A DNA stretch of 64,000 nucleotides, from positions 100,812,001-100,876,000 of the forward strand of contig OZ024741.1 in the NCBI GenBank assembly GCA_964016885.1. The letters run 5' to 3'. Position numbers and translations under genes: made by a program. Positions 1-62,520 of this stretch are shown here, piece by piece. Below the pieces are notes generated by a model. That model searched no databases. It had not been told where the DNA came from and saw only the letters and a program-made list of their open reading frames with translations. This stretch comes from Eledone cirrhosa. Taxonomy: Eukaryota. The stretch's first letter is position 1; the number at the start of each line of letters is the position of its first letter.

Positions 1-687
1 AGGTTAATTTTAAGGCCTTTTGATTCTAGGCCATGCTTCCATGTTTGGAATTTCTTCTCTAGTTCGGCCATTGATTCAGCTATGAGCGTTAGATCATCTG
101 CGTATAGGAGTTCCCATGGGCAGCCGGTCTTGAACTCCATTGTTATAGCCTGAAGGGCAATAATAAATAGTAGGGGGCTAAGAACGGACCCTGATGAACA
201 CCAACTTTTACGCTAAACTCTTCACTATATTCGTTGTTAATTCTCACAAGCCATTCATCAACACCTAGTTTTCTAAGAACCCACCAGATAATGGAACGGG
301 GGACTCTGTCGAAGGCTTTCTCCAAGTCGTCAAAAGCTAAGTATAGGGGTTTACTTTTAGCTAGGTACTTCTCCTGTAGTTGTCGTACAATGAAAAGAGC
401 GTCTGTGGTACTTTTACCTGACACAAACCCGAACTGCATTTCATCTAGATCAATTCTCTCTCTGATTAGTTGCGCTATTACTTTTTCTGTGACCTTCATG
501 ACCTGGTCGATTAATTTAATGCCTCTATAGTTACTCTTAACTAGGGCATCTCCTTTACCCTTGTAACAGTGAATGATGATGCTGCAACGCCAGTACTTCG
601 GAACAACCCCACTCTGTATGACTTTGTTTTCTATCCGGGTGACCATGGTGTGTCCCACCGTTCCAGAAGCTTTCAGCATTTCAGAAG
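1..687 (-). mobile_element. RTE-clade LINE reverse transcriptase fragment (degenerate)
   Basis: ORF 143-679 has YKGKGD..NYRGIKL, QFGF..GKSTTDA, DLEKAFDRVPR and GVHQG. LLYADDL follows in another frame near 91-111. There is an internal deletion and a frameshift. Confidence 0.9.
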
Positions 688-756
<69 letters not shown>

Positions 757-2078: not shown

Positions 2079-4077
2079 TTCTTTATTTACCATAAAGGCA
2101 TAAAAAGAAGGGACAAATACAAAGGGGGAGTTTACATATAATCGAGTAAAAAGGGTGTAACATGAAAATAATCGAAAATAACCTCAAAAGGGAGGGGACG
2201 TGATGGGGGTTGCACACACCCCCGAAAAAGTGTGCAATCCTTTGCCCGGGGAGCACATGGAGAAGGTGCTCCCCTCTCCTTTACTTCTTTACCTACAGGA
2301 TGGTATACAGAGAAGGCCCATTTACACGAGCCATTCTCGCTACTATCACCCACCTTTCATAAAACTGCCTGTGGCCAATCACCTCTCTCTCCATTCTTAT
2401 CCTTCTTCCGAAGTGATATCGGAAGAAGTAGACCAGACTATGGCCAGAGAGGAAGTTGCCTGACCTCAGACCTTTCAATCGTGTCCACCAAACAACCTCT
2501 TTCAACATGGCTATTACGCACAGAAAAACCGCCTTTGCTTCCTTTGTGAAGAGGGGAGGCGGTTTGATTGTCATCACGGACTCGGCGGTCAATTTAATCG
2601 GCGCCACCCGCGACAGCAGTTGTTCGGCGTAGCCCCACAGATCAGCCACGCCTGGACATTGCACCAATGCGTGCGCTACGGTTTCTTCGTGACGCACGCA
2701 TCTAGGGCAAATCTTTTTTGAGGGATCCCTGCCCGGGCGCCCGTGTCTGTAGAGCCTCTCTCGAACGGGTAGAGCCCCTCGGTAGCACTGCCAGGCCAGT
2801 GACTTCTGGAAGTTGTCCATTGGTCCTGGGCCGAAAGTCCTACCGAACAGGCTAGCCAGTTCGTCTTCTTCCATGTCCAGCGACTCTCCAAGGGTGTCAT
2901 CGCCCCTGCTAGCCACCAGCCCTCTATAGAATGATGAGGTGGATTCTCCACCGATGGCCTGGCCCGCTTGCCAGAGAGCCCTGAGCGCCTGAGCACACTC
3001 AGTGTGCCAGTCTCCCAGTTTTCCGGATCTTTGCTTGACCCAGGACTGTAGCTCGGTGAGTGAGACGAGTCTCGGAAAGGCTCGTTTCACGAACGGAGCC
3101 CACACCGGTTGACCAGTGAGGAATACCTGTAGGTGCCGTAGCCTTAATGCGTGCCTACGCATCATCAACCACGGCATCCCCAGCCCTCCTTTCGAAGGTT
3201 GTTGGCAGCAGATGGATCTTCTCACCATAGGAGGACGCTTCTTCCAAAGAAATTGGAAGAGCATGCGTTCCATGGTGGTGAGTGTTTCCTTAGGGCAAGG
3301 CACGACAGTCAGGCGGTAGTAAGTGACGGACGCTATGTAAATGTTCGCCACCTCCGCCCGGCCTTTTAGGGACAGCTTACACTTGGCCCATTTCTGGGTT
3401 AGTGCAAACACCTTGTTCGTAACCTCGTTCCAGTTCTTTTCCACCTGGAGGTCCGGTCCAAACCAGACCCCAAGCAACTTTACCGGGCCCTCCGTCCAGT
3501 GTCCGACGACACCGTCAGGAGGCATCGGTTTGCCTCTCCACGTTCCGAGTTGCAGCCCGATGGATGTTTCCCGGTTCTGTTTCGCTCCTGACAACCTTTC
3601 GTACTCCTCCAGTAAGGTACCGATCGCCTCGATCTCCGAGTCGGTCGATACCATTACTGTTACGTCATCGGCGTAGGCCGACACCGCTTTGCTCAATCCT
3701 GGTTCCAGGGGGATACCCTGCAACAACTCCAACTTCCTCAGTAAAGGCTCGAGAGTCAATACGTACAGAAGGGAGGAGAGAGAGCACCCCTGTCGAATGG
3801 ATCGTGTGATTTCGAACGGCTTCGAAAGGTAGCCGTTCACCTTGATCCTAGAACAGATGTGGTTGCTATGTAGGGCAGTGATCCAGCCTCTGAAAACAGG
3901 ACCGAACCCAGCCGCCGCTAGCACCGCATCCAGGTAACCATGGTCGACCCTATCGAAGGCCTTAGACTGATACAAGTTGATCAGGGCCCCACCGAAGCCA
4001 GGTTTGTTGCCAACCCTCTCTATGATGTATCGCATGAGGTGGAGGTTATCGTGAATGGACCTGGATGGGATAGCACA
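2079..4077 (-). mobile_element. 5'-truncated L1/Tx1-like LINE (RT C-terminal part, zinc knuckle, 3' UTR)
   Basis: Uninterrupted frame 4077-2293 with [27 protein letters not shown] and [15 protein letters not shown]. Flanked by the direct repeat atagatagat (2069-2078, 4078-4087). Confidence 0.92.
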
Positions 4078-4087
4078 ATAGATAGAT

Positions 4088-6049
<1,962 letters not shown>

Positions 6050-6292
6050 ATGTAAGTATGCATGTATACGTACATACATATATGTATACAGACGTACAGT
6101 AGCATGCACATATATATATATATATATACACATACATATGCATACAGGTACACATACATATATGCACGTATCAGTTTAGCGGCGCTTATTATAACGTCGC
6201 TTTGTTCGTTTGTAAACAAACTGAACAGCCTGAATTTATGCCATACGGTGTTAAGGCAACCACGTCACCTTTTTGTTCAACACTGACACAGG

Positions 6293-6337
6293 AACGATGT
6301 ACTAGTTTCAAGCTTGTTAGCTATCATCAGCACCGTT
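6293..6337 (-). ncRNA. Minimal type I hammerhead ribozyme
   Basis: Minus strand reads aacggtg CTGATGA t-agct-aaca-agct-t GAAA ctag TA catcgtt: 7-bp stem I, intact core, palindromic stem III, UA cleavage site. Confidence 0.88.
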
Positions 6338-6370
6338 TACCCATCTGCCAGATAGTTGAACGTTCGAAAG

Positions 6371-6418
6371 TATATACTTTCCTTATGAAAATTAACGGCT
6401 GAGCAGCCTAATTTGCAT
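6371..6418 (-). promoter_or_regulatory. Candidate octamer + TATA promoter module upstream of the hammerhead
   Basis: ATGCAAAT (6418-6411), 34 bp, TATATA (6376-6371). Same spacing at 34811 and 58339. Confidence 0.5.
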
Positions 6419-6655
6419 ATTGAGTGAGTTAAATCGGTCAGGCATACCGAAAACGATAAATTGAAACAAAATGAAAACGAAATTTCATTTCTGACTCTTA
6501 GTATGGCACTTACTTAAATGTAAGTATGCATGTATACATACATACATATATGTATACAGACGTACAGTAGCATGCACATATATATATATATACACATACA
6601 CATGCATACAGGTACACATACATATATGCACGTATCAGTTTAGCGGCGCTTATTA

Positions 6656-10311: not shown

Positions 10312-10439
10312 AATATAAGATCAAAAGATGGTTAAAGGAGTTCCATATATTTTATTATTATTATTATCAAACTGTAGAGTGCTTCTTATCCGATATCTGC
10401 ATTGCTTTATTGTACTACAATAAAACTCACCTCCTACAT

Positions 10440-11054
<615 letters not shown>

Positions 11055-12566
11055 AATTCCTTCACCTATTTTGGCTCCACTTCCACCTCTTTTAAAGCTC
11101 GTCTCTATAATCACCATTCATCTTTCAAATACAAACTTAAAAGAACCAACACGGCTCTCTCAGAACTCATATGGTCCTTGAAAGACAAAAACATTAAATA
11201 TACCATCTTTTGGAAGAAGGTTTCTTCTGCATCCTCATACTTGAACAGCTCTCTATCTAAAATCTGTAATCTCTGCCTAAATGAAAAATTTACCATTATC
11301 TCTAATCTAGATTCTATAATAAATAGACGTACAGATTTGTTTTCTATCTGCCTGCATAAATTCCATAGGACTTTTCACAAAGTATACAGTTAATATTCAA
11401 TTCTTTATCAATTTAGAATCTTTTCTCAAAGGCACATATACATACACCTCTTTAAAATATACCCATCTTCCTACCTTACTTTAAAGGGCATTATACACTC
11501 TATAATACCTGTTTACTCATTACCCTCTTTCTATCTTCACCTTGTAAAATCCTTCATAACATATACATTTGTTTTTTTGACGTTAGAATATTCATCCGCA
11601 ATTATTATTATTTTTTCTCTCTATCATAAAACTTTTTAATCTCAATTTCATCCTTAATTTATTATTTTTTTTCTCCCCATCAACGAACTCATTCTTAATA
11701 CATATTAACTCGTTCTTCGCACATATTATCAATTCCTTCAATATACAAACTTTAACTTCACATTATTTTTCTCAAATCCTTCTACACACAAACCTTAATA
11801 ATTTTTTCTCTTCGTTAATTTTGAAATTGCCACAATACTTATCAACATACACCTTTTTGACGTTAGAATATTCATCCACAATTATTATTTTTTTCTCTCT
11901 ATCTTCATACATAAACTCCCTCTCTTTCCACGCAAATATTTTTCCCTTCGTTAATTTTCAAATTCTTTTAATTTATACATTATCTTCCAACGGTTCTCAA
12001 CCTCTCTATGTAAAACAATATATCTTTTCTCAGTTATAAAAACTATCTCTTTCTCTCTATCACCCATCTCTCCCTCTCCACCTTCACTCTCATCTCCTCC
12101 CCCTTTTTTCATCCTTTCCACCCCCCCTCCCTAAATAAAATATTTTTTCCTCGTACATATCTTTCCCTTCGTTAATTTTCAAATTCTTTTAATTTATACA
12201 TTATCTTCCAACGGTTTTCAACCTCTCTATGTAAAACAATATATCTTCTCTCAGTTATAAAAACTATCTCTTTCTCTCTATCACCCATCTCTCCCTCTCA
12301 TCTCCTCCCCTTTTTCATCCTTTCCACCCCCCCCCCCCCGCTCTCTAAATAAAATATTTTTCCCAATATCACACATCAATCTAAAACCACTTTTCATATG
12401 TTGATTTAAAACTGCACTATCCACAAGTGTTTTTTAGCCTTCATATCATGTTCTCCTGTTTTATCTGATGAAAACACAAATATTATTGCATGATGATGTT
12501 TGTTTTTGAAATGCGCATAATAAAATACATGGAACTCCTTTAACCATCTTTTGATCTTATATTATA
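11055..12566 (+). mobile_element. 5'-truncated Penelope-like element: GIY-YIG endonuclease C-terminus, 3' UTR and hammerhead
   Basis: Frame to 11393 reads [53 protein letters not shown], resembling Hydra-clade PLE endonucleases. The UTR has an internal duplication (~11940-12150 / 12160-12362) and an HHR near the 3' end. Flanked by (TA)n. Confidence 0.85.
12457..12529 (+). ncRNA. Type I hammerhead ribozyme (PLE-associated)
   Basis: tgttttat CTGATGA (12465-71) aaacacaaat...gtttgttttt GAAA (12508-11) tgcgca TA ataaaataca. Confidence 0.82.
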
Positions 12567-30384: not shown

Positions 30385-31673
30385 CATACTCTAGAAGGAT
30401 GAAAAGCAAAGTTGACCTCTGTAAGATTTGAACTCAGAATGTAAAGAGCTGAGATAAATATTGCTCAGAAAAAGTAACCTCAGCAGGGTCCAAACTCAGA
30501 ACTTAAACAGCTGGAACAAATAAAGCAAGTCTTTTCACCAAAACTTTAGCAAGCCAATCAATTAACTCATACCCATAATAGAATTTAAGCAAAACAAAGT
30601 ATGCCTGTTTCAAAGACAAAAATAAAAAATTTTAAATAAAAACAATTGAATTTGGTAAAACAATTAACAAATTTGTATTTCTCCTGGTGGCAAGTCAGAC
30701 TACGAGGAGACTAAATGAAACAAATCAATTATAATGAAGCTTTTACTGCCAACATTTTTTTATCATGCAAGAGGCCAAGCGTAATTGGGGGTAGGTGTCA
30801 GATGGTTGAGGGAAGTCATCCTCGTCATCTTCATCTTCTCCCACTTATTCCTAAAAGAGTCTTTGAGGTAGAGTCTTCAGAAAAACCTTCTAGAGAGTCT
30901 CATCAGAAGCAACTGTCTCCAAGAAAGATCAACCGAGCTTATCGATGTTATCCAACCATTTTGCTTGTGGTCTACCTCTGTATCTCTTGCTAGTTGGCTT
31001 TACCTGTAAAATCTGCCCAGAAAGTTTTCAGGAGCTGTGATCTCTCAATGTAGATAAATAGTGGCTCTACCTGGAGTACTTTCCTGATCTTCAAGCTATA
31101 TACCCTATCAAAGTGATTTGTTAATATCTTTAAAGTTTGTGGAAAAGTAATTGAATGAGATGTCATATTACATAATATGAATTGAGATACCAGTAATATT
31201 AATAGCAGGTATGCCAATAATTCATATTTTGACTTTTGTACTATGAAGACTCCAAATACATGGGCCAAAATAGTTTTGCCTCACTAACCCAGTCAACCTA
31301 GCTGTAAGGAGGTAGGTACCATTAGAAAGCATGGGTTACTGATATAAGCAACAGGAGCACAATATAATTAAAAAGTATTTCATTATCTATATTGGATTGG
31401 CAGTATGGGTAGAGGGTCGGGCGCCATGCTTTGAAGCATAGAGTTACCTCCCTTTATGATCTCAGTTCAAATCCCGCTGAGGTTAACTTTGCCTTTCATC
31501 CTTACGGGGTCGATAAAATAAAGTACCAGTAATGCACTGGGATAAATGCTGGCCTGGTACCAAAAGTAGAAACAATTATCTATATATATGTATATATATA
31601 TATAAAATAAAATAAAATAAAATAAAATAATTAAGTCAAATATTTAAAATTTGGCTTCATTTATTAAAGGTGT

Positions 31674-31728
31674 ACTGCTATATATATTTCGGTGACAGCC
31701 ATCCTTGGCTGTGACCTCTTCAGGCAGT
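31674..31728 (-). ncRNA. Type I hammerhead ribozyme (family A)
   Basis: actgc CTGAAGA ggtcacagcca-agga-tggctgtcacc GAAA tatata TA gcagt. Confidence 0.9.
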
Positions 31729-32377
31729 CCGAATTGGTGTGGTAGAGACAGGTACGCATGTTGTTGAAGTGTTTCATCATCATCATCATCATCACCGTTT
31801 TACGTCCGTTCTTCCACGCTAGCATGGGTTCGACGGGTTGTCCTGTTGTGGGCAGTGTCTGGTCGGCTGACCATGCCTTGCTCATACAGGAACTGATTTG
31901 GCTTGATTTCTACAGCTGGATGCCCTTCCTAACACCAACCTCATTTACAGTGAGTGCTGGGTGCTTTTTCGTGGCGCCTACACGTCCACTTTACAGTGTG
32001 GGCTGGGTGCTTTTTTGCCGTGGCACCTCCACGACCACCTTGCGGTGGGGGGTGTGGGGGCTTATTGTCTATATGCTTAACTCCGTCAATACTCCGATAC
32101 GCCCAGTTCCTGGTTGGGTTGTTATTTCTCTGAGGAACTGGAATCATTATCATCATCATCATCGTTTAATGTCCATTTTCCATGCTAGCATGGGTCTGGA
32201 TGGGAATTGTCCCACTTGAAGCAAAATTGGTTGTCTTGCTCAGGACTGTCTGGCGGGTTTTCTACGACTGGATGCCCTTCCTAACACCAACCACGTTTAC
32301 AGTGTGGACTGGGAGGTTTTTACCATGTTACCTACACGGCCACATTACAGCGTGGACTGTGTGTTTTTTTGTCGTGA

Positions 32378-33985: not shown

Positions 33986-34713
33986 TATATTAGTAAAAAG
34001 GAAAAGAAAATGCTGACAAATTTTTCCCAGTGGAAAATAGTTTAATTAGGAATAAGTATAAATTAGTAATAAGTATTAGTTAGTATTCAGTTTTAGTTTT
34101 AAGTTTTTACTGGTTGCGCATTTCTAATGCTTTTCAAAAATAATTTTGAGATAGAGGGCTCATGATTTTTGCTGTAATCTGATCAGTTTGGGAAATTCTT
34201 CCTGTTTTATGTGAAAAAAGTGGCTTCAGAGGTATTAAGATTTGGTTGGTTGTTGAGTGTCACGTGAATAAGCACTATCAATTTCGCACTATAAATTGAT
34301 TTTAGCGAGAACTGGACCAGTTTGCACTAAAATCAATTTAAACATTCACGTGACATCTACCGACGAATCAAAATTGTTTTGACTACAAGAATTTTTGCAA
34401 CACGAATTGGCGCAAAATTTATAGTGCTTATTCACGTGACACTCAACAACCAACCAAATCTTAATACCTCTGAAGCCACTTTTTTCACATAAAACAGTAA
34501 GAATTTCCCAAACTGATCAGATTACAGCAAAAATCATGAGCCCTCTATCTCAAAATTATTTTTGAAAAGCATTAGAAATGCGCAACCAGTAAAAACTTAA
34601 AACTAAAACTGAATACTAACTAATACTTATTACTAATTTATAGTTATTCCTAATTAAACTATTTTCCACTGGGAAAAATTTGTCAGCATTTTCTTTTCCT
34701 TTTTACTAATATA
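33986..34713. repeat. Fold-back element, 293-bp nearly identical arms, ~142-bp loop
   Basis: 33986-34278 vs 34421-34713, with (TA)n on both sides. Confidence 0.95.
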
Positions 34714-34810
34714 ATATATATATATATATATATATATTAAGTATATATGTATATTGCTATGTCAGAGCACCAATACATTTTAATTTATGCTAGGCCGGCT
34801 ACCACTCCAT

Positions 34811-34972
34811 ATGCAAATGAGTTTCATCAGCTCATAAACATAAGCAGAATTCTATAAGAATCTAGCTTACTTTAGCTTCAGCAAAGGTAGGAAGATATAT
34901 AATCTTGATAAACATTAATAAGTGAGAAACTATTGCATCATTGGTTACTTCCTCCTGCTTTTGCTGAAGCTA
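34811..34972 (+). other. Degenerate octamer-TATA-stem-hammerhead module
   Basis: ATGCAAAT at 34811, TATAAG at 34853, then stem tagcttcagcaaa / tttgctgaagcta enclosing TTGATAA...GAAA. Confidence 0.45.
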
Positions 34973-35076
34973 GGTATGTGACGATCATCACAACCTAAAA
35001 ATTCATTTATATATATATATATATGTATATATATAAACATATACACACATAACACACATATACATTTAATACTCAC

Positions 35077-36998: not shown

Positions 36999-39775
36999 TA
37001 TCGTAAAATCAATCTAAAGCATTTATTATTTATACAACTCACAAACCTTCTCAATGACTCACCTTGCAGTTCAGAATTCTCTAGATTTAGAAAATTATAA
37101 TCATCTATACATATTTTTTTCATACTGGTAACATAGGTTGTTAAGATCTTTATAATTCTTCCTAAAAGATTTTACTTAGCAACATTTTACTCAGTTAGTA
37201 TATTCTATTTAGAAACATTGCATGCAATAAATCATCCCTATCATCATCATTATTATCATCACTATTTAATGTCTGTTTTCTATGCTTGCATGGATTAAAC
37301 AACTGCCATGCGTTGAGGTCAAACTGGTCAGGTGACTAGGTCCTGCTCATAGGCTTTGTTGAGGCATGATTTCTATACCTAATGCCAACCACTTTACAAT
37401 GAAACGAGAGCATGGTTTCTATGGCCGGATGATCTTTCTAACATTAACGACTTTACAGCGTGTACTGGGAGTATGGCTTCTGTGGCTAGATGCCCTCCCA
37501 AATACAAACCATTTTGCAGTGTGTACTAGGAGTATGATTTCTACAGCTGGATGCCCTTTCTAACACCAACCACATCACTTTACAGCATGTGCTAGGTAGG
37601 AGCATGGTTTCTATGGCTGGGTGCCCTTCATAATACCAAGCACTTTACAGCATGTACTTGGAACATTTTATTATCATTCCGGCCCTACTACCTTACAGGG
37701 TAAACAGGGTACTTTTCATCAAAGCACCAGTACTATTACCTTGCAGGGTGGGCTGGGTGCTTTTGTTGTGGCACCGGCAATACCTCATTACAGCACTAAT
37801 GTGGTCAGTGTCCTTGGTTTTGCTGTGGAGGTATTAATAAGACTCAAAGATAAATATTAACCTAGTGTATAGGGTGGCATATAAGATGGGTTGGTAGTTA
37901 CTAAGGCAAGAGATAGCTTACCATCAGTTATCATCTATGCTAATAACTTATACACCTGAAGTATAAGACAATCCCATACTTGGTGGTGGAGGACATTTTT
38001 AAGGTTAACTAGTCTTCTTATAATTCAACATACACATCATCATTATCATCATCATCATCATCATCATCACCATTTAATGTTTAGTTTTCAAGCTGTCATG
38101 GGTTAACAGGCTAACCCCTTATGTGGTTTGACCAGTCAGGTGACCATGCTGAGCTCATATGTTTCCTTTTTGGCATGGTTTGCATGGCTGAATGCCCTTC
38201 CTAACACCAACAACTTTACAGCATATACTGGGAGCATTTAATCATGGCACCAGCAGCTCTTATATAAACATAGGTGTTCTTTCACCACCTCCACCAGTAA
38301 CACCACCATTATCACCATCACCACCACCACTACTACTACTACCACTTACACAATGATGTGTCCATATTAACCCTTTAGTTAACAATCCAACTCTGGTTCC
38401 ATGAAATAAAACCACTCATTTTAAAGGTTTCTAATTTAAATTAAAATCTCCCAACAATTTTATATAAGAACCTTACATTAAGTTAATATCTTGATAATGA
38501 AATAATTAATAATTTTAGTAAATCCCTCAAAATTCTTCATAAATTAATTAAAATAGAGTGTATTTCATTAGAAATGCAGTCATGAAAGGGTTAAATTTAA
38601 ACTTTCTATTATAATTTTATCTAAGAAAATATATTTTAAACACCAGCTTAAGAAAGAATAAGAAAAGTTCTTTAATGAAATATCTCAGAATTCTTGATTG
38701 TTTTTAATTATTTAAAAATCATATGAAGTGTTTTTCATTAAAAATATAGTAATGATAGGGTTAAATTAATATATACTAACTGGTGTTTTGATATATTATT
38801 TTACAGGAACTCTTACTCAGTCGTACATTAATTAGAGCCCACCCCACCCTTCGTCAGTAGCTGGAGATGTGGAAATACCAAGTTATTTTGATGATTTTGA
38901 TGATTTTGTTGTCTTAAAATAGAGAAACGGGTGAGGGGGTAGCACCAAGATGATGTGAATCATGTGAGAATTTATTAAAGAGTTAGATTGAGGTGTAGAG
39001 GGTTAAGAAGGACAAAGAGAGAGAAGAAGGACACAGAGAGAAAAATGACTAAACTGGAGCTATTCCAAGACATATTTCTAATTCAACTTCACTTACGAGA
39101 GAAAAAAAAATGAAAACTTGGCAATGTAAAATATTCCATCTCCACATACATTCTTGATGATGTAGAACACAGTGAATATCATCTTTTAAGGTCAAACTAT
39201 TTACATCAATGATATATTGTTCTTTTCCCTACCTGCGTAATTTGAATTGATTAAAATTTCTTGGTTTACTACACTGTGTATGTTAGCACTCACTTAACTA
39301 TTTGTTTTTAATGCAGAAGGCCCCCTGTGTATTCTTTCTTCAGTCATTATTTTAAGATATCCCATCACTTAATATTCATTCAAAAAATTCTTATATCTTA
39401 TCTAGTTCTTCTAAAATCTGGCAGTAATGGTTTGACTCTGCTACACTGATGATGTCTAACAACATTGAAATATATTCACAATTGTCACTGTAATACCTCA
39501 CATCTGACTTACTATCTGAAGTAGTCTTTTGTTTTATTAATTTTATTTTGAATCCTGATGCTGTTTTTTGACAATTAGCTTTTTCCTCTCCCCCCTCAAC
39601 ACTCCATTACCATATTTCTAATGGAATACACTGTATTGGAATTAATTAATGAAGAGTTGAAAGTTATGTACTAAAATTATTAATTATCTAATTATTAAGA
39701 TTTCTTTAACATATATCAAATTATGATGGAAGATTCAAATTTAAACAGGAAACCTTTTAAATGGGTAGTTTTGGG

Positions 39776-40779
39776 CAGTGTGGAATGGCTGCATTTTATC
39801 ATGGCATCAGCACTACCACTTTACAGTGTGGAATGGCTGCATTTTATCATGGCATCAGCACTACCACTTTACAGTGTGGAATGGCTGCATTTTATCATGG
39901 CATCAGCACTACCACTTTACAGTGTGGAATGGCTGCATTTTATCATGGCATCAGCACTACCACTTTACAGTGTGGAATGGCTGCATTTTATCATGGCATC
40001 AGCACTACCACTTTACAGTGTGGAATGGCTGCATTTTATCATGGCATCAGCACTACCACTTTACAGTGTGGAATGGCTGCATTTTATCATGACACCAGCT
40101 CTACAGCTTTACAGTGTGGAATGGCTGCATTTTATCATGACACCAGCTCTACAACTTTACAGTGTGGAATGGCTGCATTTTATCATGACACCAGCTCTAC
40201 AACTTTACAGTGTGGGATGGGTGCATTTTATCATGACACCAGCTCTACAACTTTACAGTGTGGGATGGGTGCATTTTATCATGACACCAGCTCTACAACT
40301 TTACAGTGTGGAATGGCTGCATTTTATCATGACACCAGCTCTACAACTTTACGGTGTGGGATGGGTGCATTTTATCATGACACCAGCTCTACAACTTTAC
40401 AGTGTGGAATGGCTGCATTTTATCATGACACCAGCTCTACAGCTTTACAGTGTGGAATGGCTGCATTTTATCATGACACCAGCTCTACAACTTTACAGTG
40501 TGGGATGGGTGCATTTTATCATGACACCAGCTCTACAACTTTACAGTGTGGGATGGGTGCATTTTATCATGACACCAGCTCTACAACTTTACAGTGTGGG
40601 ATGGGTGCATTTTATCATGACATCAGCTCTACAACTTTACAGTGTGGGATGGGTGCATTTTATCATGACACCAGCTCTACAGCTTTACAGTGTGGATTGA
40701 GTGCATTTTATTGTGGCATCAGCACTACCACTTTACAGTGTGGATTGAGTGCATTTAATTGTGGCATCAGCACTACCAT
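39776..40779. repeat. 48-bp minisatellite, ~21 units
   Basis: cagtgtggaatggctgcattttatcatg(gcatcagcactacca/acaccagctctacaa)cttta. Confidence 0.97.
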
Positions 40780-48124: not shown

Positions 48125-49170
48125 AAGTTGTATTTGGAAACACATTGCATGGCCAATTTGAAGAACAAATGTCTGAATTAAAGAATAAAAGGTCTCGGGC
48201 TTGGCTCTCCTGCAGTGATCTAAAAAGGGTGACAGAAGCACTGCTGATATCAGCCCAAGACCAAAGTTTTGAGTACTAAGTCAGTAACTAAAGGTAAATA
48301 TTATCTTGGTGAAAGTGTGAAGTGCTGCTTGTGTGGAATTAATACAGAAAAGGTCACCCACATAGTGAGTACTTGCAAAATGCTAACTCAAAAAGAGCAT
48401 AAAAGAAGACATGACAAGGTCTTTATGTACCTTCACTGGTCAAGGTGCAAAAAATATGGATATCAGGTGTCCGATATATGGTACCATTATGCCTCAGAAT
48501 GTGTCCTTGATGACAGAGACAAACCCAAGATACTTTGGGACTTCACTATCCAAACGGACTGCAGGCTTGAAACACAACAGACCTGATATTGTAGTAATGC
48601 ACAGAAATAGACATGAATGTCAGATGGTTGATGTTACCATCCCAGGAGACCACAACATAGCCTTGAAAGAAATTGAAAAAAATAACAAAATATATTGACT
48701 TGAAGATTGAATTGCATGAATGTAGTCAATACCACCAAACAACATGAAGATAATTCCAGTTGCAAACCTGCCAACCTCTAAAACCCAGACATGAAAAAAA
48801 GTGCCCCAAAATGGGGAGAAATGAGGCAGAATGAGGATATTTTACACAATGAAAGCTATACCCATTTTTTTAAGAGAAGATATCTCTCACCCAACCCAAA
48901 GTGGGTGGGAGATCTCCCCGTCGGATGGGAAGAGTTGACAAGTCTGCAGTTGTCATTGGAGCTTTAGGCTTGATATTTCTAAAACTGAGAAAGCACCTTA
49001 AGCAAATCGACTTCAACTCACAAATTACTTTTTTTACAAAAGACTTCCCTATTGGGCAGTGCCCATATACTCAGGAAAGTACTGTTTGTCTAAGGTCCTT
49101 GTTGAGGACTGACAGGTAAAAGATACAATTATAATATTTACTGTGCAAACCCATAATAATAATAATAATT
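48125..49170 (+). mobile_element. R4/Dong-like non-LTR retrotransposon 3' fragment (restriction-like endonuclease)
   Basis: LHGQF, ISAQDQ, C.LC...E.VTHIVS.C, RHDKV, KILWDFTIQTD, RPDIVV, KEIEK, PVVIGALG. Ends in (TAA)n. Contains frameshifts. Confidence 0.88.
48763..48946. mobile_element. MITE inserted in the R4/Dong fragment, 6-bp TSD cagttg
   Basis: TSD at 48757-62 and 48947-52. Removing the MITE restores IIPVVIGALG. Confidence 0.88.
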
Positions 49171-50056
49171 GTTTCTGATTATGCACAATCTTTTATATTC
49201 TGAGTTTAAATCCCAACGAGGTTAGCTTTGCCTTTCATCCTTACTGGGTCGATAAATAAAGCACCAGTAATGCACTAGGGTCGATTTAATCGACTTTCCC
49301 CAACCCCAAAATTGCTGACTTTGTGCCTAAATCAGAAACCATTAACATGCTTTATGGCATAGAGTTAAGGCCTTTTACAATCTGAATTCAAATCCTGCAG
49401 AGGTTAACTTTGCCTTTCATTCTTATGGGATCGATCAAATAAAGTACCAGTAACGTACTAGGGTCGATTTAATCAACTTTCCCCTCCCACAAAATGTTTG
49501 GCTTTGTGCCTAAATGAGAAACCATTATTATAATCAAATGTCTGTGAAAAAAATGGAAGTTTCTAGTAACAAAGAATTTTTTTAATATTTTAGCAGATAA
49601 TAGCATTAATCTGTAGAGTTCCATTTAAAATGGAACCAGTCAGTAAAGGAGGTTGTTAGTTGAGTCAAAGACAGCCGAAACAATTCAAAAATAGATTTGA
49701 TAACTATTAAAAGGACATTAAATTTTAAAAAAAAAAAGGTTCTAAAATGTCTTTTACAAATGAATCAGCATTTACAGGAGACTGTTTGTCAGCTGTAAAA
49801 AAAAATGCTACAAATTAGATTTCATCACGATAGGCTTAAATTTCTTAAGTCAGACAGAAACAACATTTTGCTAATAAACCATAGCAGACCAAATATTTCA
49901 GAACAACTAAATATTGTTTACTCTACAAGAAATTAAAAAAAAAAGTTTTTAAACAGTTTTATAGAAGTATTTTCAGTCAAGTATTCAGAATTTAAAAAAA
50001 AGAATAACTATACTCTTAAAAAATAGCTTTCAACATTGCTGTTTATTTAATGTGTG

Positions 50057-50103
<47 letters not shown>

Positions 50104-50147
50104 TCATCATCGTTTAACAGTTTAACATCCATTTTCCACGCTAGCAT

Positions 50148-50780
50148 TGTAAACTTAATTAATCAAGTGTTCCCTAATTTTCAAATCCTTCATTCAAACA
50201 AGGAATGGCTGTGTGAAAGAACAAACCTTGTTCCCCAAAACATCGCAGTAAATGCTATCAACAAAAATCTCTCACAAATGATCCCTGGTGAGGACGAAGC
50301 TGTTCATTATCCCGTTGAATTTCTCAACAGTCTGAACCATCTGGTATGCTGCCTTACATTCTTGAATTGAAAAAGGGTACAGTCATCATGCTTCTCAGAA
50401 ACCTGGATCAGCCATAACTGTGCAATGGGATGTGTATGGTTGTGACTGCACCACGGCCTCACATTATTGAAGCCAAGATCCTCACTGGCTGTGGTAAGGG
50501 AGACATCGTATTTATACCTAGAATACCGCTAATACCAACAAATGTCCCCTTTCATTTCAAACAATTGCAATTCCTAGTGAGCATCAGTTTGGCAATGACC
50601 ATTAACAAGTCCCAAGGCCAAACACTGCAAGCTGTCAGTCTCCATCTAGAAGAGGGATGTTTCTCATATGGTCAATTGTATGTAGGTTATTCCATACTAG
50701 GAAGACTCCACAAACTCTTCATATAAGCGCTCCAAAGAAAAAAAAAAGTTTAAAACATTGCATATGCTAAAGTTCTGTAA
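50148..50780 (+). mobile_element. Helitron PIF1-type helicase C-terminal fragment
   Basis: YPVEFLNSL, MLLRNLD..LCNG, VFIPRIPLIP, AMTINKSQGQTL, FSYGQLYV; frameshifted. Confidence 0.9.
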
Positions 50781-56815: not shown

Positions 56816-58338
56816 TAACAACTAAAAGTTATCAATAAAATTTTGAACAATTAATCCAAAATGTAGTCAAATCATGATTAATATTTATTTTAGGTATTAA
56901 TAGAGCCAATCAAGGTCAGATATGACTGCTAGTTTTTAAATACATTGACTTGGCTTTGTTGTGCTGTGAGAATTGTCATGACAATTTACTTAAAAACAAA
57001 ATATTAAAACACCCAAGAAAATGTTGTTAACGTTCAACAACAATCACAATCATCATCATCATCATCATCATTTAACATCCACCATTTTCAATGTTAGCAT
57101 GGGTAGGACAGGTTGTCTCTTTGTGAGAGATCAGGTTGGAGGACCATATTTCGCTCACACAGAATTGATTTGGGCTTGGTTTCTACGGCTGGATGCTCTT
57201 CTTAATGCAAACCACATTTACAGTGTGTGCTGGGTGCTTTTTGTCGTGACACTGACACGACCACCTTAAAGTGTGGGCTTGGTACTTTTTGTTGTGTCAC
57301 CAACACAACCACTTTACGGGCACTTTTTGTTGTGACATCTACATGACCACTTTACAGTATGGACTAGGTACTTTTTGTCAGGTCACCAACACAACCACTT
57401 TACAGTGTGGACTGGGCGCTTTTTGTCATGACACCTACATGACCACTTTACATTTCAAAATATTTTTAATGAGAAAAAGAGTTTATATTTTTATCATTTT
57501 TCATGAGATTAAGAAGTTTAAACAATTGCAGTTAACAATATGTATTTAACAATGTGAAGCACATAATGATGATTAAAGAAATTGGTTTTCATAGTAACTA
57601 AAATGGAAACTTATAAATTGAGCCAGTGTCCACTGCTTTTAAATGAGATTTATCTTTAGAAGCTTAAAATATTTTATGGTTTGTATTTTAGTCTCTTGAC
57701 ATCATCAAAGATTAGATCACATTTGGTGTCATATATATATATATATATGTCTGTATTCATGAGAAAGAGGCTTCATCGAAATGTTTTTACTATAAAAAAC
57801 TAGTTTTAATGGTTTAACCCTTTAGCATTCACATTATTTTATATATACTATTATATTTTCATGGTAAAGGCTTTACCTCACATAATTATCTCACATAATA
57901 TCGAATCTATGAGATTTTGAAAGTATTTATTTTGAGAACAATACCTTAACATCAGTTTGAGCGACCAGTTACAGCCAGAGGTAGAGAATTCTGGCCAGTT
58001 TTGGCCGGTTTGAACATTAAAGGGTTAATAATAGTGTATATAATCCGCCTTAACAGGAAAAAAATGGACATCAGCAGGTGCTAATGCCCATTTATATACA
58101 CCATCATCATCACCATTCAATGTCCATTTTTTCACACTAGCATGGGTTATATATATGTGTGTGTGTGTGTGCTGGACACCACTAGAGGGCGTTAGCTCCG
58201 GTGTTTGCATAGCCATGGCTTCCTAAAACCGTATTTCTTTAGAAATACAAAATTTCTATCCAAATTGTATAGAGCTATGCTTGAAGCGAAATCTTATTTC
58301 TTTTCTATTACAAGTTGAGACAACTTATGCAGCTTCAT

Positions 58339-58387
58339 ATGCAAATGAGATTAATCACCTCATTTACACAGACGAGAAAACTATATA
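58339..58387 (+). promoter_or_regulatory. Candidate octamer + TATA promoter module
   Basis: ATGCAAAT 58339-46, 35 bp, TATATA 58382-87. Confidence 0.5.
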
Positions 58388-58431
58388 TTCTCGACTGTTT
58401 TCAAGTCCAGCAGTAGCAAGCGGTGGGAGGG

Positions 58432-58475
58432 ACTGTCCTGACGAAGGCCAGTCAAGCCCGAAATGCATAGATGGT
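58432..58475 (+). ncRNA. Minimal type I hammerhead ribozyme
   Basis: actgtc CTGACGA a-ggc-cagtcaa-gcc-c GAAA tgca TA gatggt, enclosed by gtccagcagtagcaag / cttgcttctgctggac. Confidence 0.85.
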
Positions 58476-58802
58476 TGTACCCCTTGCTTCTGCTGGACAC
58501 CACCAGAGGGCGTTAGCTTCCGGTTCAGTCCCAATTTGTGGCACCTTGAGCAAGTGTCTTTCATTATAGCTTTCTGTTCACCACTACTCAGTTAAGAAAA
58601 TTTGTTAGACAGAGACTATGCAGAAAACTGACGCATATACGTCTGTGTGCATATTTTTTTTTGTTTTGTTTATGTCCCACAACTTAGCAGTTCAAAGAAC
58701 AGAGATCAATAAGATAAGTAAATATGATTGATTAAAAACTTTTAAGGTGATGCACTATCATGCCCGCAGTCTAATGACAGAAAACAGGAAGAGAATAAAA
58801 GA

Positions 58803-58853
<51 letters not shown>

Positions 58854-58980
58854 GTATAGTACCAGGAAAAACAAATGACTGCAATGACCATGTTGAGAAA
58901 AATACTTTGGTAAGCAATTTTCCATATTTGTTTGTTTGCACATTGATTCACACAAACAAATTTTAACCTGACATATTATC

Positions 58981-59019
<39 letters not shown>

Positions 59020-59075
59020 CCCCGGCATGGCCTCAGCCGGATAGCTGGAACTGGTAAAAGAGTATATATATATAT

Positions 59076-59287
59076 AAAACAAAGAGCGTGTGGTAAGATA
59101 TACCTGGTGGACCATAATGCACCAGAGTACTCAATACTTAGGGTAGTAGAGTAGGTAACATGAAAAGGAAAAGAGTCAGGACTCCGACGGCTGAGCTCCG
59201 GTCGTTTCAACAGCTTTATCCAAACTGTTAGGATCTAACTGTCGAAACGGCTGGAGTTCAGCTGTCGGGCTCCTGACTCTTTTCTTT
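59076..59287. mobile_element. Family B repeat with fold-back end
   Basis: Arms ~59165-59213 and 59238-59287. Confidence 0.85.
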
Positions 59288-60005
59288 ATAGAGAGAGAGA
59301 GGGGGGAGAGAGGGAGGGAGGGGGGGAGAGAGAGAGAGAGAGAGAGATTGGGAGGGGGGAACATGGACAATGAACAGCACCAGTAACAAGCTACAAAGAA
59401 AACCAATAAAAGCCGACACTCTTTGTTTGGTAGCCCAACACACTGTCAACTCAGCTATCAGCAGCTATCATCACAATCTTATCCAATTATATTATTACTT
59501 AACTTACAAGTAACAAAAATTCCAGTTGATTCTCTTATTTCTAAAATCAATACATAAAATAAAACAGATTAATGACAACAAAATCCAAAGGTAATCTTAG
59601 TATCTTGATATGACTAAATCAATAGAATAAAAAACTTAGAAACTATGAATTAATTTGATGCCATGATGACTAACAAGATAGGACTGCTGAAATAATCTCA
59701 CCTTGCTTTTTATTTTAAACCACACCTTACTGACTCTTCCACCATTGCTTATTGCACTTTTACAAGAAATACTAAAGACCTCCAACAATAACAACATATA
59801 AAGCATTAGTATTTATTTTAATCATCGTTTATTTATATATATATATATATATATATTTTTTTAGTATATGTTGGTTGTTTACCGACACCTCAGTATGCAG
59901 ATTGGAGCACTCGATGAAGTGCGCAGGCTGGTTTGGTTACTCCGGATTAATGTAAAATAAACTAAAATAAATAAGTCAAATATTTACAATTTGGCTTCAT
60001 TTATT

Positions 60006-60063
60006 ACTGCTATATATATTTCGGTGACAGCAGCCATCTTTGGCTGTGACCTCTTCAGGCAGT
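60006..60063 (-). ncRNA. Type I hammerhead ribozyme (family A, left arm of palindrome 59957-60200)
   Basis: Same as 60097-60151 but with a 3-nt duplication in stem II. Confidence 0.85.
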
Positions 60064-60096
60064 CCGAATTGATGTGGTAGAGAGGGGTACACTCGG

Positions 60097-60151
60097 ACTG
60101 CCTGAAGAGGTCACAGCCAAAGATGGCTGTCACCGAAATATATATAGCAGT
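60097..60151 (+). ncRNA. Type I hammerhead ribozyme (family A, right arm)
   Basis: actgc CTGAAGA ggtcacagcca-aaga-tggctgtcacc GAAA tatata TA gcagt. Confidence 0.92.
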
Positions 60152-60208
60152 AATAAACGAAGCCAAATTGTAAATATTTGACTTATTTATTTTATTTTAT
60201 ATATATAT

Positions 60209-60383
60209 AACAAAGGAATTGTGGTAAGGAACTAGATGGACCATAACGCACCAGAGTACTTAATACTTAGGGTAGTAGAGTGGGAAATAGGAAAAAGTAT
60301 GACCCCGACAGCAGAGCTCAAGCCATTTCGACGGTCCAGAAATAGCCGTCGAAATGGCTTGAGCTCTGCCGTCGGGGTCATAC

Positions 60384-60391
<8 letters not shown>
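60209..60391. mobile_element. Family B repeat with fold-back end
   Basis: Arms 60289-60335 and 60345-60391. Confidence 0.85.
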
Positions 60392-60457
<66 letters not shown>

Positions 60458-60458
<1 letters not shown>

Positions 60459-60838
60459 GACACATGACTTAGTGGTTAGAGCATTAGCCTTGCAATCGAA
60501 AGGTTGTGAGTTCAATTCTCAGACCGGGTGATGTGTTGTTTCCTTGAGCAAGACACTTTATTTCACATTGCTCCAGTTTGCTCAGCTGTAGAAATGAGAT
60601 GATAGGACTGGGGTCCCTATCATACAAATGCAAAGTGGTCGTGGAGGTGCCATGGCAAAAAAGCACCCAGCCCCCACTGTAAAGTGGATGTGTAGGCGCC
60701 ACAGAAAAAAGCACCCAGCACTCACTGTAAATGAGGTTGGTGTTAGGAAGGGCATCCAGCTGTAGAAATCAAGCCAGAATCAGTTCCCGTCCCACCCTTG
60801 CAAGCAGGGAAAAGCGGACATAAAATGATGATGATGAT
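60458..60838 (+). mobile_element. Full-length SINE (same family as 52202-52585)
   Basis: High similarity by eye. Confidence 0.88.
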
Positions 60839-60910
60839 ATATATACATAATTAGAATTTTATTTCTCGCCCTAGCACAGCTGATACATTCTTACATTTAT
60901 ATATATATAT

Positions 60911-61022
60911 AATAAAGGAAGTGTGGTAAGAGTACTCGATCCTTAGGGTGGTAGATGAGTAATAGGAAAAGAGTCAGGACTGCGACAGCCAGAGCTCAGC
61001 CGTTGGGGTCCTAACACTTTTC
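60911..61022. mobile_element. Family B repeat folding back at the gagctc hairpin
   Basis: gaaaagagtcaggac...gtcctaacacttttc; (TA)n on both sides. Confidence 0.75.
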
Positions 61023-61313
61023 ATATATATATATATATATATATATCATGTTTAATGTAGAGATGGCTTCTACAGGACTAGAACTGTTTTATTAAAAAAA
61101 ATAAATCTACTAATGTATTGAGTACCTTACTTACAGGCAACTAATGAAATTTTTAAATTTATATTAATAGAGCTGACTTTAGATTCTAATAGTGGCTGTT
61201 TGTAACACTTTGATAAACCTACACTTTTGTCAGACAATATGATTAATTACTTTACATATTAATCAATATTTTAACACACACACACGCGCACACACACACA
61301 CACACATATATAT

Positions 61314-61624
61314 AATTAGGTAGTAACATTTGCTTACACCGTATTTGACTAAATAGAATTAGCCTGTTAGTTGCGATTTAAGAAACCCCGCTGAATGGGA
61401 AAAAGGATGAGTATTGATGTACATGGGACACGAACCCACATCTTTGGTTTGCCAGACCAATGTGTTACCATTACACATTGGTTCGGCAAACAAAATATGT
61501 AGGTTCTTGTCCCATGTACATCAATACTCATCCTTTTTTCCATTCAGAGGGGTTTCTTAAATCCCGACTAACAGACTAATTCTATTTAGTCAAATACGGC
61601 GTAAGCAAATGTTACTACCTAATT
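61314..61624. repeat. 311-bp palindrome centred on a truncated tRNA-like sequence
   Basis: Arms are reverse-complementary up to a 7-nt loop (61466-72). Minus strand 61476-61415 has D, anticodon and T arms. Confidence 0.92.
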
Positions 61625-61691
61625 TTCAAATTCGCTAGCTGTTTCTTAACAAAACTTGCTTTGTGTCTGCATATTCATATATACATATATG

Positions 61692-62520
61692 AACCAAACA
61701 CACAGACTTACATACACATTCACAGCATGGAGGAATGGACGTTAAACGGCAATGATATATATATATATATATATATGAACCAAACACACAGACTTACATA
61801 CACATTCACAGCATGGAGGAATGGACGTTAAACGGCAATGATATATATATATATATAAACCAAACATACAGACTTACATACACATTCACAGCATGGAGGA
61901 ATGGACGTTAAACGGCAATGATATATATATATATATATATAAACCAAACATACAGACTTACATACACATTCACAGCATGGAGGAATGGACGTTAAATGGC
62001 AATGATATATATATATATATATATATAAACCAAACATACAGACTTACATACACATTCACAGCATGAAGGAATGGACGTTAAATGGCAATGATATATATAT
62101 ATATATATATAAACCAAACACACAGACTTACATACACATTCACAGCATGGAGGAATGGACGTTAAATGGCAATGATATATATATATATATATATGAACCA
62201 AACACACAGACTTACATACACATTCACAGCATGGAGGAATGGACGTTAAACGGCAATGATATATATATATATATAAACCAAACATACAGACTTACATACA
62301 CATTCACAGCATGGAGGAATGGACGTTAAACGGCAATGATATATATATATATATATATAAACCAAACATACAGACTTACATACACATTCACAGCATGGAG
62401 GAATGGACGTTAAATGGCAATGATATATATATATATATATATAAACCAAACATACAGACTTACATACACATTCACAGCATGGAGGAATGGACGTTAAATG
62501 GCAATGATATATATATATAT
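61692..62520. repeat. Ten ~80-86-bp tandem units, each a constant ~63 bp plus variable (AT)n
   Basis: aaccaaaca(c/t)acagacttacatacacattcacagcatggaggaatggacgttaaa(c/t)ggcaatg(at)n. Confidence 0.97.

What the first reader, a model, noticed from the sequence alone, without database searches (positions are those of the whole stretch)
58170..58524. Compact 321-bp retrozyme-like monomer with all parts visible
In order: terminal repeat, octamer, TATA, 16-bp outer stem, intact CUGACGA hammerhead (cut after 58469), terminal repeat. This is the best single test case for the proposed class.
Basis: partly seen in the sequence, partly recalled or inferred. Interest (0 to 1): 0.7.

Follow-up and report, generated by a model that had tools for sequence, protein, structure and literature searches.

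The report
Solo hammerhead retroelement with internal promoter
A single, slightly more than unit-length copy of a small self-cleaving-RNA retroelement sits in an intron of a mollusc gene, and it shares a fixed-spacing promoter-like module with two distant relatives nearby, which may explain how such RNA circles get transcribed.

Summary
The anatomy is real: 33/34-nt direct repeats 321 nt apart, an octamer (58339), TATA (58382), an outer stem with 15 of 16 pairs, and a type I hammerhead core cutting after 58469. It is best read as a solo 1.1-unit copy of a non-LTR retrozyme-like element, copied from a circular or multimeric RNA, probably by a Penelope-like element (a fragment of one lies in the window). 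Two diverged relatives (6050-6655 minus; about 34755-35005 plus; 57-62% identical in the core block) keep octamer, TCASC and TATA at +0, +16 and +42/43. The hammerhead helices covary between this copy and the 6050-6655 relative. Caveats: there is no second copy or array in the window. With one ribozyme this copy cannot release a circle. Helix II has a mismatch, and a competing hairpin puts the active fold about 9 kcal/mol above the ensemble (3.5 for the relative), so 'intact' and 'best test case' are overstated. The class is known (animal retrozymes; newt satellite 2 has an snRNA-type promoter). The possible novelty is a compact TATA-containing promoter module conserved across mollusc families. 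Promoter activity, polymerase and cleavage are untested.

The parts
58170..58490 (+). One full unit (321 nt, 41.7% GC) of element A; insertion 58170 to about 58524 is about 1.1 units
   Evidence: Repeat spacing 321; as a circle it folds at -94.6 kcal/mol against -69.2 +/- 5.9 for 60 shuffles
58170..58202 (+). Left copy of the terminal redundancy
58491..58524 (+). Right copy of the terminal redundancy; begins 22 nt after the cut site; its first 8 nt close the outer stem; 58514-58524 also matches the flanking SINE-like repeat (9 of 11 to a paralog)
58339..58346 (+). Octamer ATGCAAAT (POU-factor site by established knowledge); perfect in relatives B and C
58355..58359 (+). TCASC pentamer at +16 from the octamer, same offset in A, B and C; candidate PSE-like element (resemblance recalled, spacing does not clearly fit)
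58382..58387 (+). TATA box at +43 (+42 in B and C), lying in the loop of a hairpin (arms 58368-58378 / 58388-58398)
58405..58498 (+). Outer hairpin enclosing the hammerhead (arms 58405-58424 / 58479-58498); inferred transcription start about 58410-58413 at its 5' foot
   Evidence: start site inferred from about 30 nt TATA-to-start spacing
58431..58476 (+). Type I hammerhead: helix I 58431-58437 / 58470-58476, core CUGACGA 58438-58444, helix II 58445-58459, GAAA 58460-58463, palindromic helix III 58463-58468, cut after 58469
   Evidence: covariation with B at 4 of 13 pairs
58148..58171 (+). TA/TG microsatellite at the left junction
58514..58620 (+). Right flank: 5'-truncated, decayed tRNA-SINE-like repeat beginning at a B-box-like motif (B-box label recalled); 69% identical to a copy at 28037-27940
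6050..6655 (-). Relative B: 464-nt unit plus about 140-nt terminal redundancy, octamer 6418, TATA 6376, well-formed hammerhead (core 6330, cut after 6300), TA microsatellites on both sides
34755..35005 (+). Relative C: shorter than one unit, octamer 34811, TATA 34853, long outer stem, decayed hammerhead core (TTGATAA at 34905), TA microsatellites on both sides, no terminal redundancy found; boundaries approximate
11058..12530 (+). 3' end of a Penelope-like element: C-terminal endonuclease fragment (11058-11390) followed by a hammerhead at 12465; candidate kind of helper, not shown to mobilise A

Best explanation
58170-58524 is a solo, 1.1-unit insertion of a non-autonomous hammerhead retroelement of the animal non-LTR retrozyme type. 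Shown by sequence: the insert runs without a break across the ribozyme cut site and closes head-to-tail on itself, so its template held more than one turn of the unit (a ligated circle or an uncleaved multimer). Inferred: (1) at a tandem source locus an internal octamer-TCASC-TATA promoter starts RNA about 30 nt past the TATA, at the foot of the outer hairpin, and reads into the next unit; (2) neighbouring hammerheads pair through their palindromic helix III and cut after AUA, releasing 321-nt RNA that a host ligase circularises; (3) a Penelope-like RT/endonuclease starts internally about 45-55 nt downstream of the cut site, possibly primed through about 11 nt of microhomology at a nick in an old SINE, copies one turn plus 23-34 nt, and ends at a TA/TG microsatellite. 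Going round the circle is what regenerates the promoter upstream of the start site. This copy has one ribozyme only, so it is probably a dead end unless it expands into a tandem.
For: Repeat and motifs are not chance. The repeat's first 8 nt pair with the element's interior, so the repeat is element sequence. Relative B has the same design with a 464-nt unit and about 140-nt redundancy. Leave-one-out profiles recover each of A, B and C as top non-training hit at E 2e-16, 2e-9 and 6e-8. Helices I and II covary between A and B (4 of 13 pairs changed on both sides); both have different palindromes in helix III (self-duplex -4.7 and -4.8 kcal/mol) and a mismatch at the base of helix II, as in axolotl HHR_Amex2. 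TCASC at +16 with TATAW at +42/43 occurs at 8 positions in the window; the 3 with a perfect octamer are A, B and C, the other 5 have 4 or more octamer mismatches. Octamer flanks share 12 of 37 columns three ways against 2.9 +/- 1.7 in random triples (columns chosen after seeing the data). A Penelope-type endonuclease end with its own hammerhead is in the window. Size, GC below 50%, dimer-type helix III and solo copies match published animal retrozymes; a 30-40 bp tail and internal RT start are published for Penelope elements.
Against: No second copy of family A and no tandem array in 64 kb. Active fold of A is +9.0 to +10.1 kcal/mol against the ensemble, compared with +3.5 (B), +0.6 (D) and +2.9 (E) (nearest-neighbour model, no tertiary contacts or dimers). 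Rfam hammerhead models give no hit. The promoter-like motifs sit in hairpins that fold better than shuffles in all three copies (1, 5 and 6 of 300), so they may be RNA features. A, B and C are related (57-62% identical), so they are not independent witnesses. The endonuclease fragment has no Pfam GIY-YIG hit; its assignment rests on motifs seen in the alignment with homologs. The one Penelope RT tested in vitro starts at a site not homologous to the target, unlike the microhomology proposed here. Eight of nine Xenopus retrozyme dimers tested did not cleave.
Confidence: 0.7

Rival explanations
1. It is the isolated pseudo-LTR plus 'tail' of an autonomous Penelope-like element, a truncated insertion rather than a self-standing circular replicon.
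For: Penelope pLTRs carry type I hammerheads and probably the promoter, and copies end in a 30-40 bp tail. An extra A after CUGANGA, one possible register here, is typical of PLE hammerheads. PLE fragments are in the window.
Against: A tail copies the sequence that follows the 5' pLTR (start of the ORF region); here what follows the unit is the unit's own beginning, which needs a tandem or circular template. The open frame across the unit has no protein homolog among proteins of 54-174 aa. The real PLE-linked hammerhead at 12465 and family D have long helices II and no octamer module.
Confidence: 0.15
2. The element is a retrozyme, but octamer, TCASC and TATA are conserved as RNA hairpin and loop signals (for RT or host-protein binding, or circle compaction), not as a DNA promoter; transcription comes from read-through.
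For: In A, B and C the segment folds better than shuffles (1, 5, 6 of 300), and the TATA lies in or at the tip of a hairpin whose stems differ in sequence. The non-ribozyme part of A is also unusually structured (0 of 100 shuffles). Read-through was proposed for the lampbrush transcripts of newt satellite 2.
Against: The octamer is letter-perfect in 3 of 3 copies while its pairing differs among them; linear spacing is held to within 1 nt; TATA lies about 25-30 nt before the ribozyme hairpin. An internal snRNA-type promoter is reported for newt satellite 2.
Confidence: 0.25
3. The 33-bp repeat is a long target-site duplication around a 288-bp insertion.
For: Animal retrozyme TSDs, when present, are longer than 4 bp. 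The end of the right copy matches host SINE-like sequence.
Against: The repeat's first 8 nt form part of the element's outer stem. The left flank is a microsatellite plus another repeat, not the missing 5' half of the SINE. B has a 140-nt redundancy.
Confidence: 0.05
4. Chance co-occurrence of short motifs in repeat-rich DNA with a local duplication.
For: TATA-like words are common here (3% of positions have TATAW at the tested offsets); no Rfam hit.
Against: Fold z = -4.9; two relatives found at E of 6e-8 or better; covariation; chance of 2 of 6 octamers being followed by a strict core is about 1e-5 (interval chosen after the fact).
Confidence: 0.01

Closest known systems
Animal non-LTR retrozymes (Cervera and de la Pena 2020, PMC7229834; Li, Clavereau and Pollet 2026, 10.64898/2026.07.22.740005)
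   Same: Non-coding unit of 170-400 nt (mussel 350-390), GC below 50%, one type I hammerhead with short palindromic helix III per unit, highly self-paired circle, solo monomers common, PLEs in the same genome.
   Different: Here only a 1.1-unit solo copy is seen, no array. The 2020 paper's main text has the word 'promoter' twice, and the one shown is the T7 promoter of a clone; no internal promoter is described in the parts I read of either paper. The predicted fold of A blocks the core, which that paper reports only for some mussel circles.
Newt satellite 2 (330-bp hammerhead satellite)
   Same: About 330-bp unit, dimer-type hammerhead, reported internal snRNA-type promoter. That this promoter consists of an octamer and a PSE is recalled from Coats et al. 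1994, which could not be read.
   Different: The newt promoter is reported as Pol II; Pol II snRNA promoters are TATA-less in vertebrates, whereas A, B and C have a conserved TATA. Mollusc host. Sequence homology to satellite 2 was not tested.
Penelope-like element pseudo-LTR hammerheads and tails (PMC4209133, PMC11167929, 10.1101/2021.04.23.441226)
   Same: Type I hammerhead with palindromic helix III, 30-40 bp terminal extension, microsatellite-biased insertion, internal RT start downstream of the ribozyme.
   Different: No ORF; helix II is short (3-4 bp) rather than the 7-8 bp of Schistosoma minimal hammerheads; the unit closes on itself.
Compact type 3 promoters (H1/U6) and octamer-TATA Pol II promoters (Ig VH)
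   Same: Octamer, an intermediate element and TATA within about 80 bp, as in the 84-bp mouse H1 core, which can load Pol III and Pol II; octamer plus TATA with family-conserved spacing in VH genes.
   Different: No Staf site is evident (not tested). TCASC-to-TATA is 26-27 nt against 35 nt for PSE start to TATA in the predicted Schistosoma U6 promoter. The octamer-TATA gap is 34-35 nt against 8-19 nt in the five VH1 rows I saw.

Membership tests
Animal non-LTR retrozyme | Type I hammerhead with conserved core and NUH cut site | tested here: met
   Rfam models did not detect it
Animal non-LTR retrozyme | Short non-coding unit of about 150-450 bp, GC below 50% | tested here: met
   321 nt, 41.7% GC; open frame has no homolog
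Animal non-LTR retrozyme | Tandem organisation with at least two hammerheads (definition of an active copy) | tested here: not met
   One hammerhead, 1.1 units, no array in 64 kb. This copy is therefore not an active retrozyme by the 2026 definition; solo monomers are a recognised derivative.
Animal non-LTR retrozyme | Multi-copy family in the host genome | not testable with these tools
   No eukaryotic genome collection on hand. Two distant relatives in the window; no match in prokaryotic genomes or plasmids.
Animal non-LTR retrozyme | No LTR, PBS or PPT | tested here: inconclusive
   No long terminal repeats, only 23-34 nt of redundancy; PBS and PPT were not searched for explicitly
Animal non-LTR retrozyme | Self-cleavage and expression as circular RNA | not testable with these tools
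   Only folding energies: active fold disfavoured by 9 kcal/mol in this copy
Animal non-LTR retrozyme | Co-occurrence with Penelope-like elements | tested here: met
   Endonuclease end at 11058-11390 with 3117 homologs at E up to 0.001; homologs show an RT-like DDG motif, a Cys-rich linker and conserved Cys/His residues (motif labels recalled and); hammerhead at 12465. No Pfam confirmation.
Autonomous Penelope-like element | RT plus GIY-YIG ORF between pseudo-LTRs | tested here: not met
   No such ORF in or next to 58170-58524
Plant LTR retrozyme | Type III hammerhead in LTRs, 4-bp TSD | tested here: not met
   Topology is type I and there are no LTRs; definition
snRNA-type (type 3) promoter | Octamer, PSE and TATA with PSE-TATA spacing | tested here: inconclusive
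   Octamer and TATA present with fixed spacing; no mollusc PSE matrix found; spacing is 8-9 nt shorter than in the Schistosoma prediction if TCASC is the PSE start
snRNA-type (type 3) promoter | Pol III-compatible transcript without T-run terminators | tested here: inconclusive
   No run of 5 T in A, B or C, but 46% of 321-nt background windows also lack one; runs of 4 T occur 2, 4 and 2 times

The most novel reading that the evidence does not exclude
Molluscs (probably cephalopods) carry a superfamily of hammerhead retroelements whose diverged families all keep a compact, fixed-geometry octamer-PSE-like-TATA promoter. A self-contained snRNA-like promoter plus ribozyme cassette, so far reported for newts, would then be a general design of animal retrozymes, with promoter DNA doubling as hairpin-forming circle RNA. 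At the boldest, family A would also spread CTCF-consensus sites in its terminal repeat, and its 107-codon circle, which has a single stop in one frame, could be translated by rolling circle in other copies. Each of these two extras is below 0.05 on its own.
Probability: 0.3. Interest if true: 0.65.

Novelty: new variant of a known kind. Interest (0 to 1): 0.42.

Why it matters
Animal retrozyme circles are abundant in many tissues, yet the papers read here do not say what drives their transcription, apart from older reports for newt and schistosome satellites. Three diverged copies with invariant octamer-TCASC-TATA spacing give a precise, mutable prediction of promoter and start site. They could also yield a 75-bp promoter for small-RNA expression in molluscs. 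The 1.1-unit structure with mapped ends is a direct footprint of reverse transcription round a circle or multimer, and it predicts where the helper RT starts.

Tried and rejected
Rfam at gathering threshold (whole window) and at E up to 10 (57500-61000): no hammerhead family. Exact scan of 185,579 prokaryotic genomes for a 21-nt repeat pattern: 0 loci. blastn against plasmids: no match. The open frame 58227-58523 as a protein: 0 hits among proteins of 54-174 aa and no Pfam family, so coding is not supported. The endonuclease fragment gave nothing in the word-index search restricted to 61-195 aa and no Pfam GIY-YIG hit for itself or for 7 homologs. Of the 8 descriptor hits, two (36216, 51230) with mismatched cores were dropped as chance before the count of 6 strict cores used. 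Three of 6 octamers in the window (20903, 55843, 45836) have no module. Absence of long T runs is not significant. My recalled match to Ig VH promoter geometry was not borne out by the five table rows seen. A covariance model from A and B found no further clear member beyond C (E 0.088); 39428-39493 scored E 2.9. TSD and chance readings were rejected (see rivals).

Full report
Setting. The window is AT-rich, microsatellite-laden animal DNA. Exons of an Atos/FAM214-like gene lie on the minus strand between 63861 and 14985; the named homologs are from a bivalve and a chiton at about 30% identity. The host is therefore a mollusc by inference; that the repeat landscape looks octopus-like is my recollection, not a tool result. 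The finding (element A) lies in the intron between the exons at 63861-63661 and 54584-54447, antisense to the gene.

Observation. The direct repeat 58170-58202 / 58491-58524 matches at 32 of 34 columns with a 321-nt period, and 0 of 100 shuffles gave two matches. Octamer 58339, TATA 58382, outer stem with 15 of 16 pairs, core CUGACGA 58438, GAAA 58460 and the cut after 58469 were confirmed. The hairpin region folds at z = -4.86 and the whole insert at z = -4.21. AUA is a natural hammerhead triplet (PMC1636495, search listing only). Rfam does not detect this hammerhead.

How intact is the ribozyme. All core nucleotides are present. Helix II is either three pairs on an A.C mismatch, or an extra A followed by G-C, G-C, C.C, C-G. 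The 5' strand of helix I can also pair with helix II and loop 2 (8 of 9 pairs), looping out the core. Forcing the active fold costs 9.0-10.1 kcal/mol, against 3.5 for relative B, 0.6 for family D and 2.9 for the PLE-linked hammerhead E. This may be decay or a switch that protects circles from recutting; one copy cannot tell. Helix III is the palindrome typical of hammerheads that work as dimers.

Relatives in the window. Family A has no second copy, but two diverged units share its layout. B (6655-6050, minus) is a 464-nt unit with about 140 nt of terminal redundancy differing by two substitutions and a 4-nt indel. C (about 34755-35005, plus) is truncated and has a decayed core. They are 57-62% identical over the octamer-to-cut block, and leave-one-out profiles find each at E 2e-16, 2e-9 and 6e-8; upstream of the octamer they do not align. 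Between A and B, 4 of 13 predicted pairs changed on both sides and none broke; two sequences are a thin basis. In all three, TCASC lies at +16, TATA at +42/43 and a TYYRGCAR word 24 nt after the TATA. TCASC with TATAW at those offsets occurs at 8 positions in the window, and the 3 with a perfect octamer are A, B and C. A possible fourth, old copy at about 39350-39510 has TCAC, TATA, the TYYRGCAR word and a core at similar spacing but only 4 of 8 octamer letters, and it is not significant (E 0.17 and 2.9). These tests were designed after seeing the motifs, and the three copies share ancestry; they show conservation, not function.

Junctions. The left end abuts a TA/TG microsatellite. The right end runs into a decayed, 5'-truncated SINE-like repeat, and the last 11 nt of the right repeat match a paralog of that repeat at 9 of 11, including the extra base that distinguishes the two repeat copies. 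The element's own redundancy is thus about 23-34 nt, with 1 difference in the first 23. B and C sit in TA microsatellites. The repeat is not a target-site duplication, since its first 8 nt close the element's outer stem.

Mechanism. Shown: the insert crosses the cut site and closes on itself, so the template held more than one turn. Inferred from published retrozymes and PLEs: multimeric transcription, dimer cleavage, ligation by RtcB, then reverse transcription by a Penelope-like enzyme that starts internally, downstream of the ribozyme, and leaves a 30-40 bp tail. A Penelope-type endonuclease end followed by its own hammerhead lies at 11058-12530, with an inverted truncated copy at 10315-10358; Pfam did not confirm the domain, and nothing shows that this family mobilised A. 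The inferred start about 30 nt after the TATA falls at the foot of the outer hairpin, so the promoter lies outside a primary transcript's 5' end and is regained only from a circle or multimer. With one ribozyme, this copy cannot release a unit-length RNA.

Promoter or RNA structure. The module resembles compact octamer-PSE-TATA promoters, but the PSE assignment is uncertain and T-run evidence is neutral, so Pol II against Pol III is open. The same segment forms hairpins in all three copies (1, 5 and 6 of 300 shuffles), so an RNA-level role remains a live rival.

Comparison. It works like an animal non-LTR retrozyme; this copy fails the tandem criterion for an active one and corresponds to the solo monomers of the 2026 preprint. 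An internal snRNA-type promoter is reported for newt satellite 2 (one sentence and a title in PMC2220036; its octamer/PSE content is recalled). Six searches (listings of up to 20 papers each) showed no paper on cephalopod retrozymes or on a TATA-containing retrozyme promoter. A 2026 Octopus vulgaris repeat annotation has no occurrence of 'ribozyme' or 'retrozyme' in its main text but lists active Penelope families. The library lacks most subscription papers and Repbase/Dfam, and unread supplements may bear on this.

Papers seen. 10.64898/2026.07.22.740005: parts 1-3 of 5. PMC7229834: parts 2-4 of 6 plus passages, supplement unreadable. PMC11167929 and PMC4209133: parts 1-2 of 4; for the latter also supplement passages, file 1 not searched. 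Passages only: 10.1101/2021.04.23.441226, PMC2220036, PMC2837043, PMC10886601, PMC9652321, PMC11340601, PMC5460494, PMC13282606, PMC6746451, PMC2212390. PMC2114352: an abstract passage. PMC1636495: listing. Coats et al. 1994: title only.

Verdict. A real feature and a new variant of a known kind. The strongest new point is the fixed promoter-like geometry across diverged families, which the single element could not show. Interest 0.42.

Noticed in passing
window 58179-58191 and 58500-58512 (+): Both repeat copies match 13 of the 14 positions of the human CTCF consensus (consensus confirmed in PMC6746451); 0.03 matches expected per window. The one difference between the copies falls at a degenerate position. 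Not present in B or C; noticed after the fact.
   Followed up: partly
window 58170-58490 (+), frame starting at 58170: Closed as a circle of 107 codons, one sense frame has a single stop (58224-58226), three codons after a GCCATGG start at 58212; 41 of 2000 shuffles are as open. No protein homolog.
   Followed up: partly
window 31617-31755 (-), 59957-60058 (-) and 60102-60220 (+): A second hammerhead family (D; CUGAAGA core, long helix II, AU palindrome), three copies 87-90% alike, two of them as an inverted pair, without the octamer module; looks like truncated Penelope-type ends.
   Followed up: partly
window 10315-12530: 3' end of a Penelope-like element (endonuclease fragment, internal duplications, hammerhead at 12465) with an inverted truncated copy, embedded in TA microsatellite.
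   Followed up: partly
window 39350-39510 (+): Possible old fourth relative of A/B/C: TCAC 39365, TATA 39392, core 39446, decayed octamer; not significant.
   Followed up: partly
window 58493-58506, 6222-6203 (-), 34971-34986: Small hairpins with A/C-rich loops or flanks lie near the 3' ends or repeat starts of A, B and C, recalling the AC-rich stem-loop where the anole PLE RT starts. Seen by eye; in A it competes with the outer stem.
   Followed up: partly
window 59017-59285, 60210-60390, 60910-61025: A repeated element beside microsatellites that ends in long inverted repeats (for example 60290-60390); unclassified.
   Followed up: no
window 33990-34350 (-) and 34300-34720 (+): About 350-bp inverted duplication directly upstream of relative C.
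   Followed up: no
window 61360-61660: tRNA-like Rfam hit at 61423-61476 (-) inside an inverted-repeat structure, probably a SINE head.
   Followed up: no
window 2293-4080 (-), 143-690 (-), 48248-48698 (+), 50020-50726 (+): Open frames that by eye look like LINE reverse-transcriptase fragments and a Helitron-type helicase fragment (labels recalled, not scanned).
   Followed up: no
window 39776-40756 and 61677-62520: Young minisatellites: a 48-bp unit in 20 copies (96%) and an 84-bp unit in 10 copies (95%); neither holds a hammerhead core.
   Followed up: no
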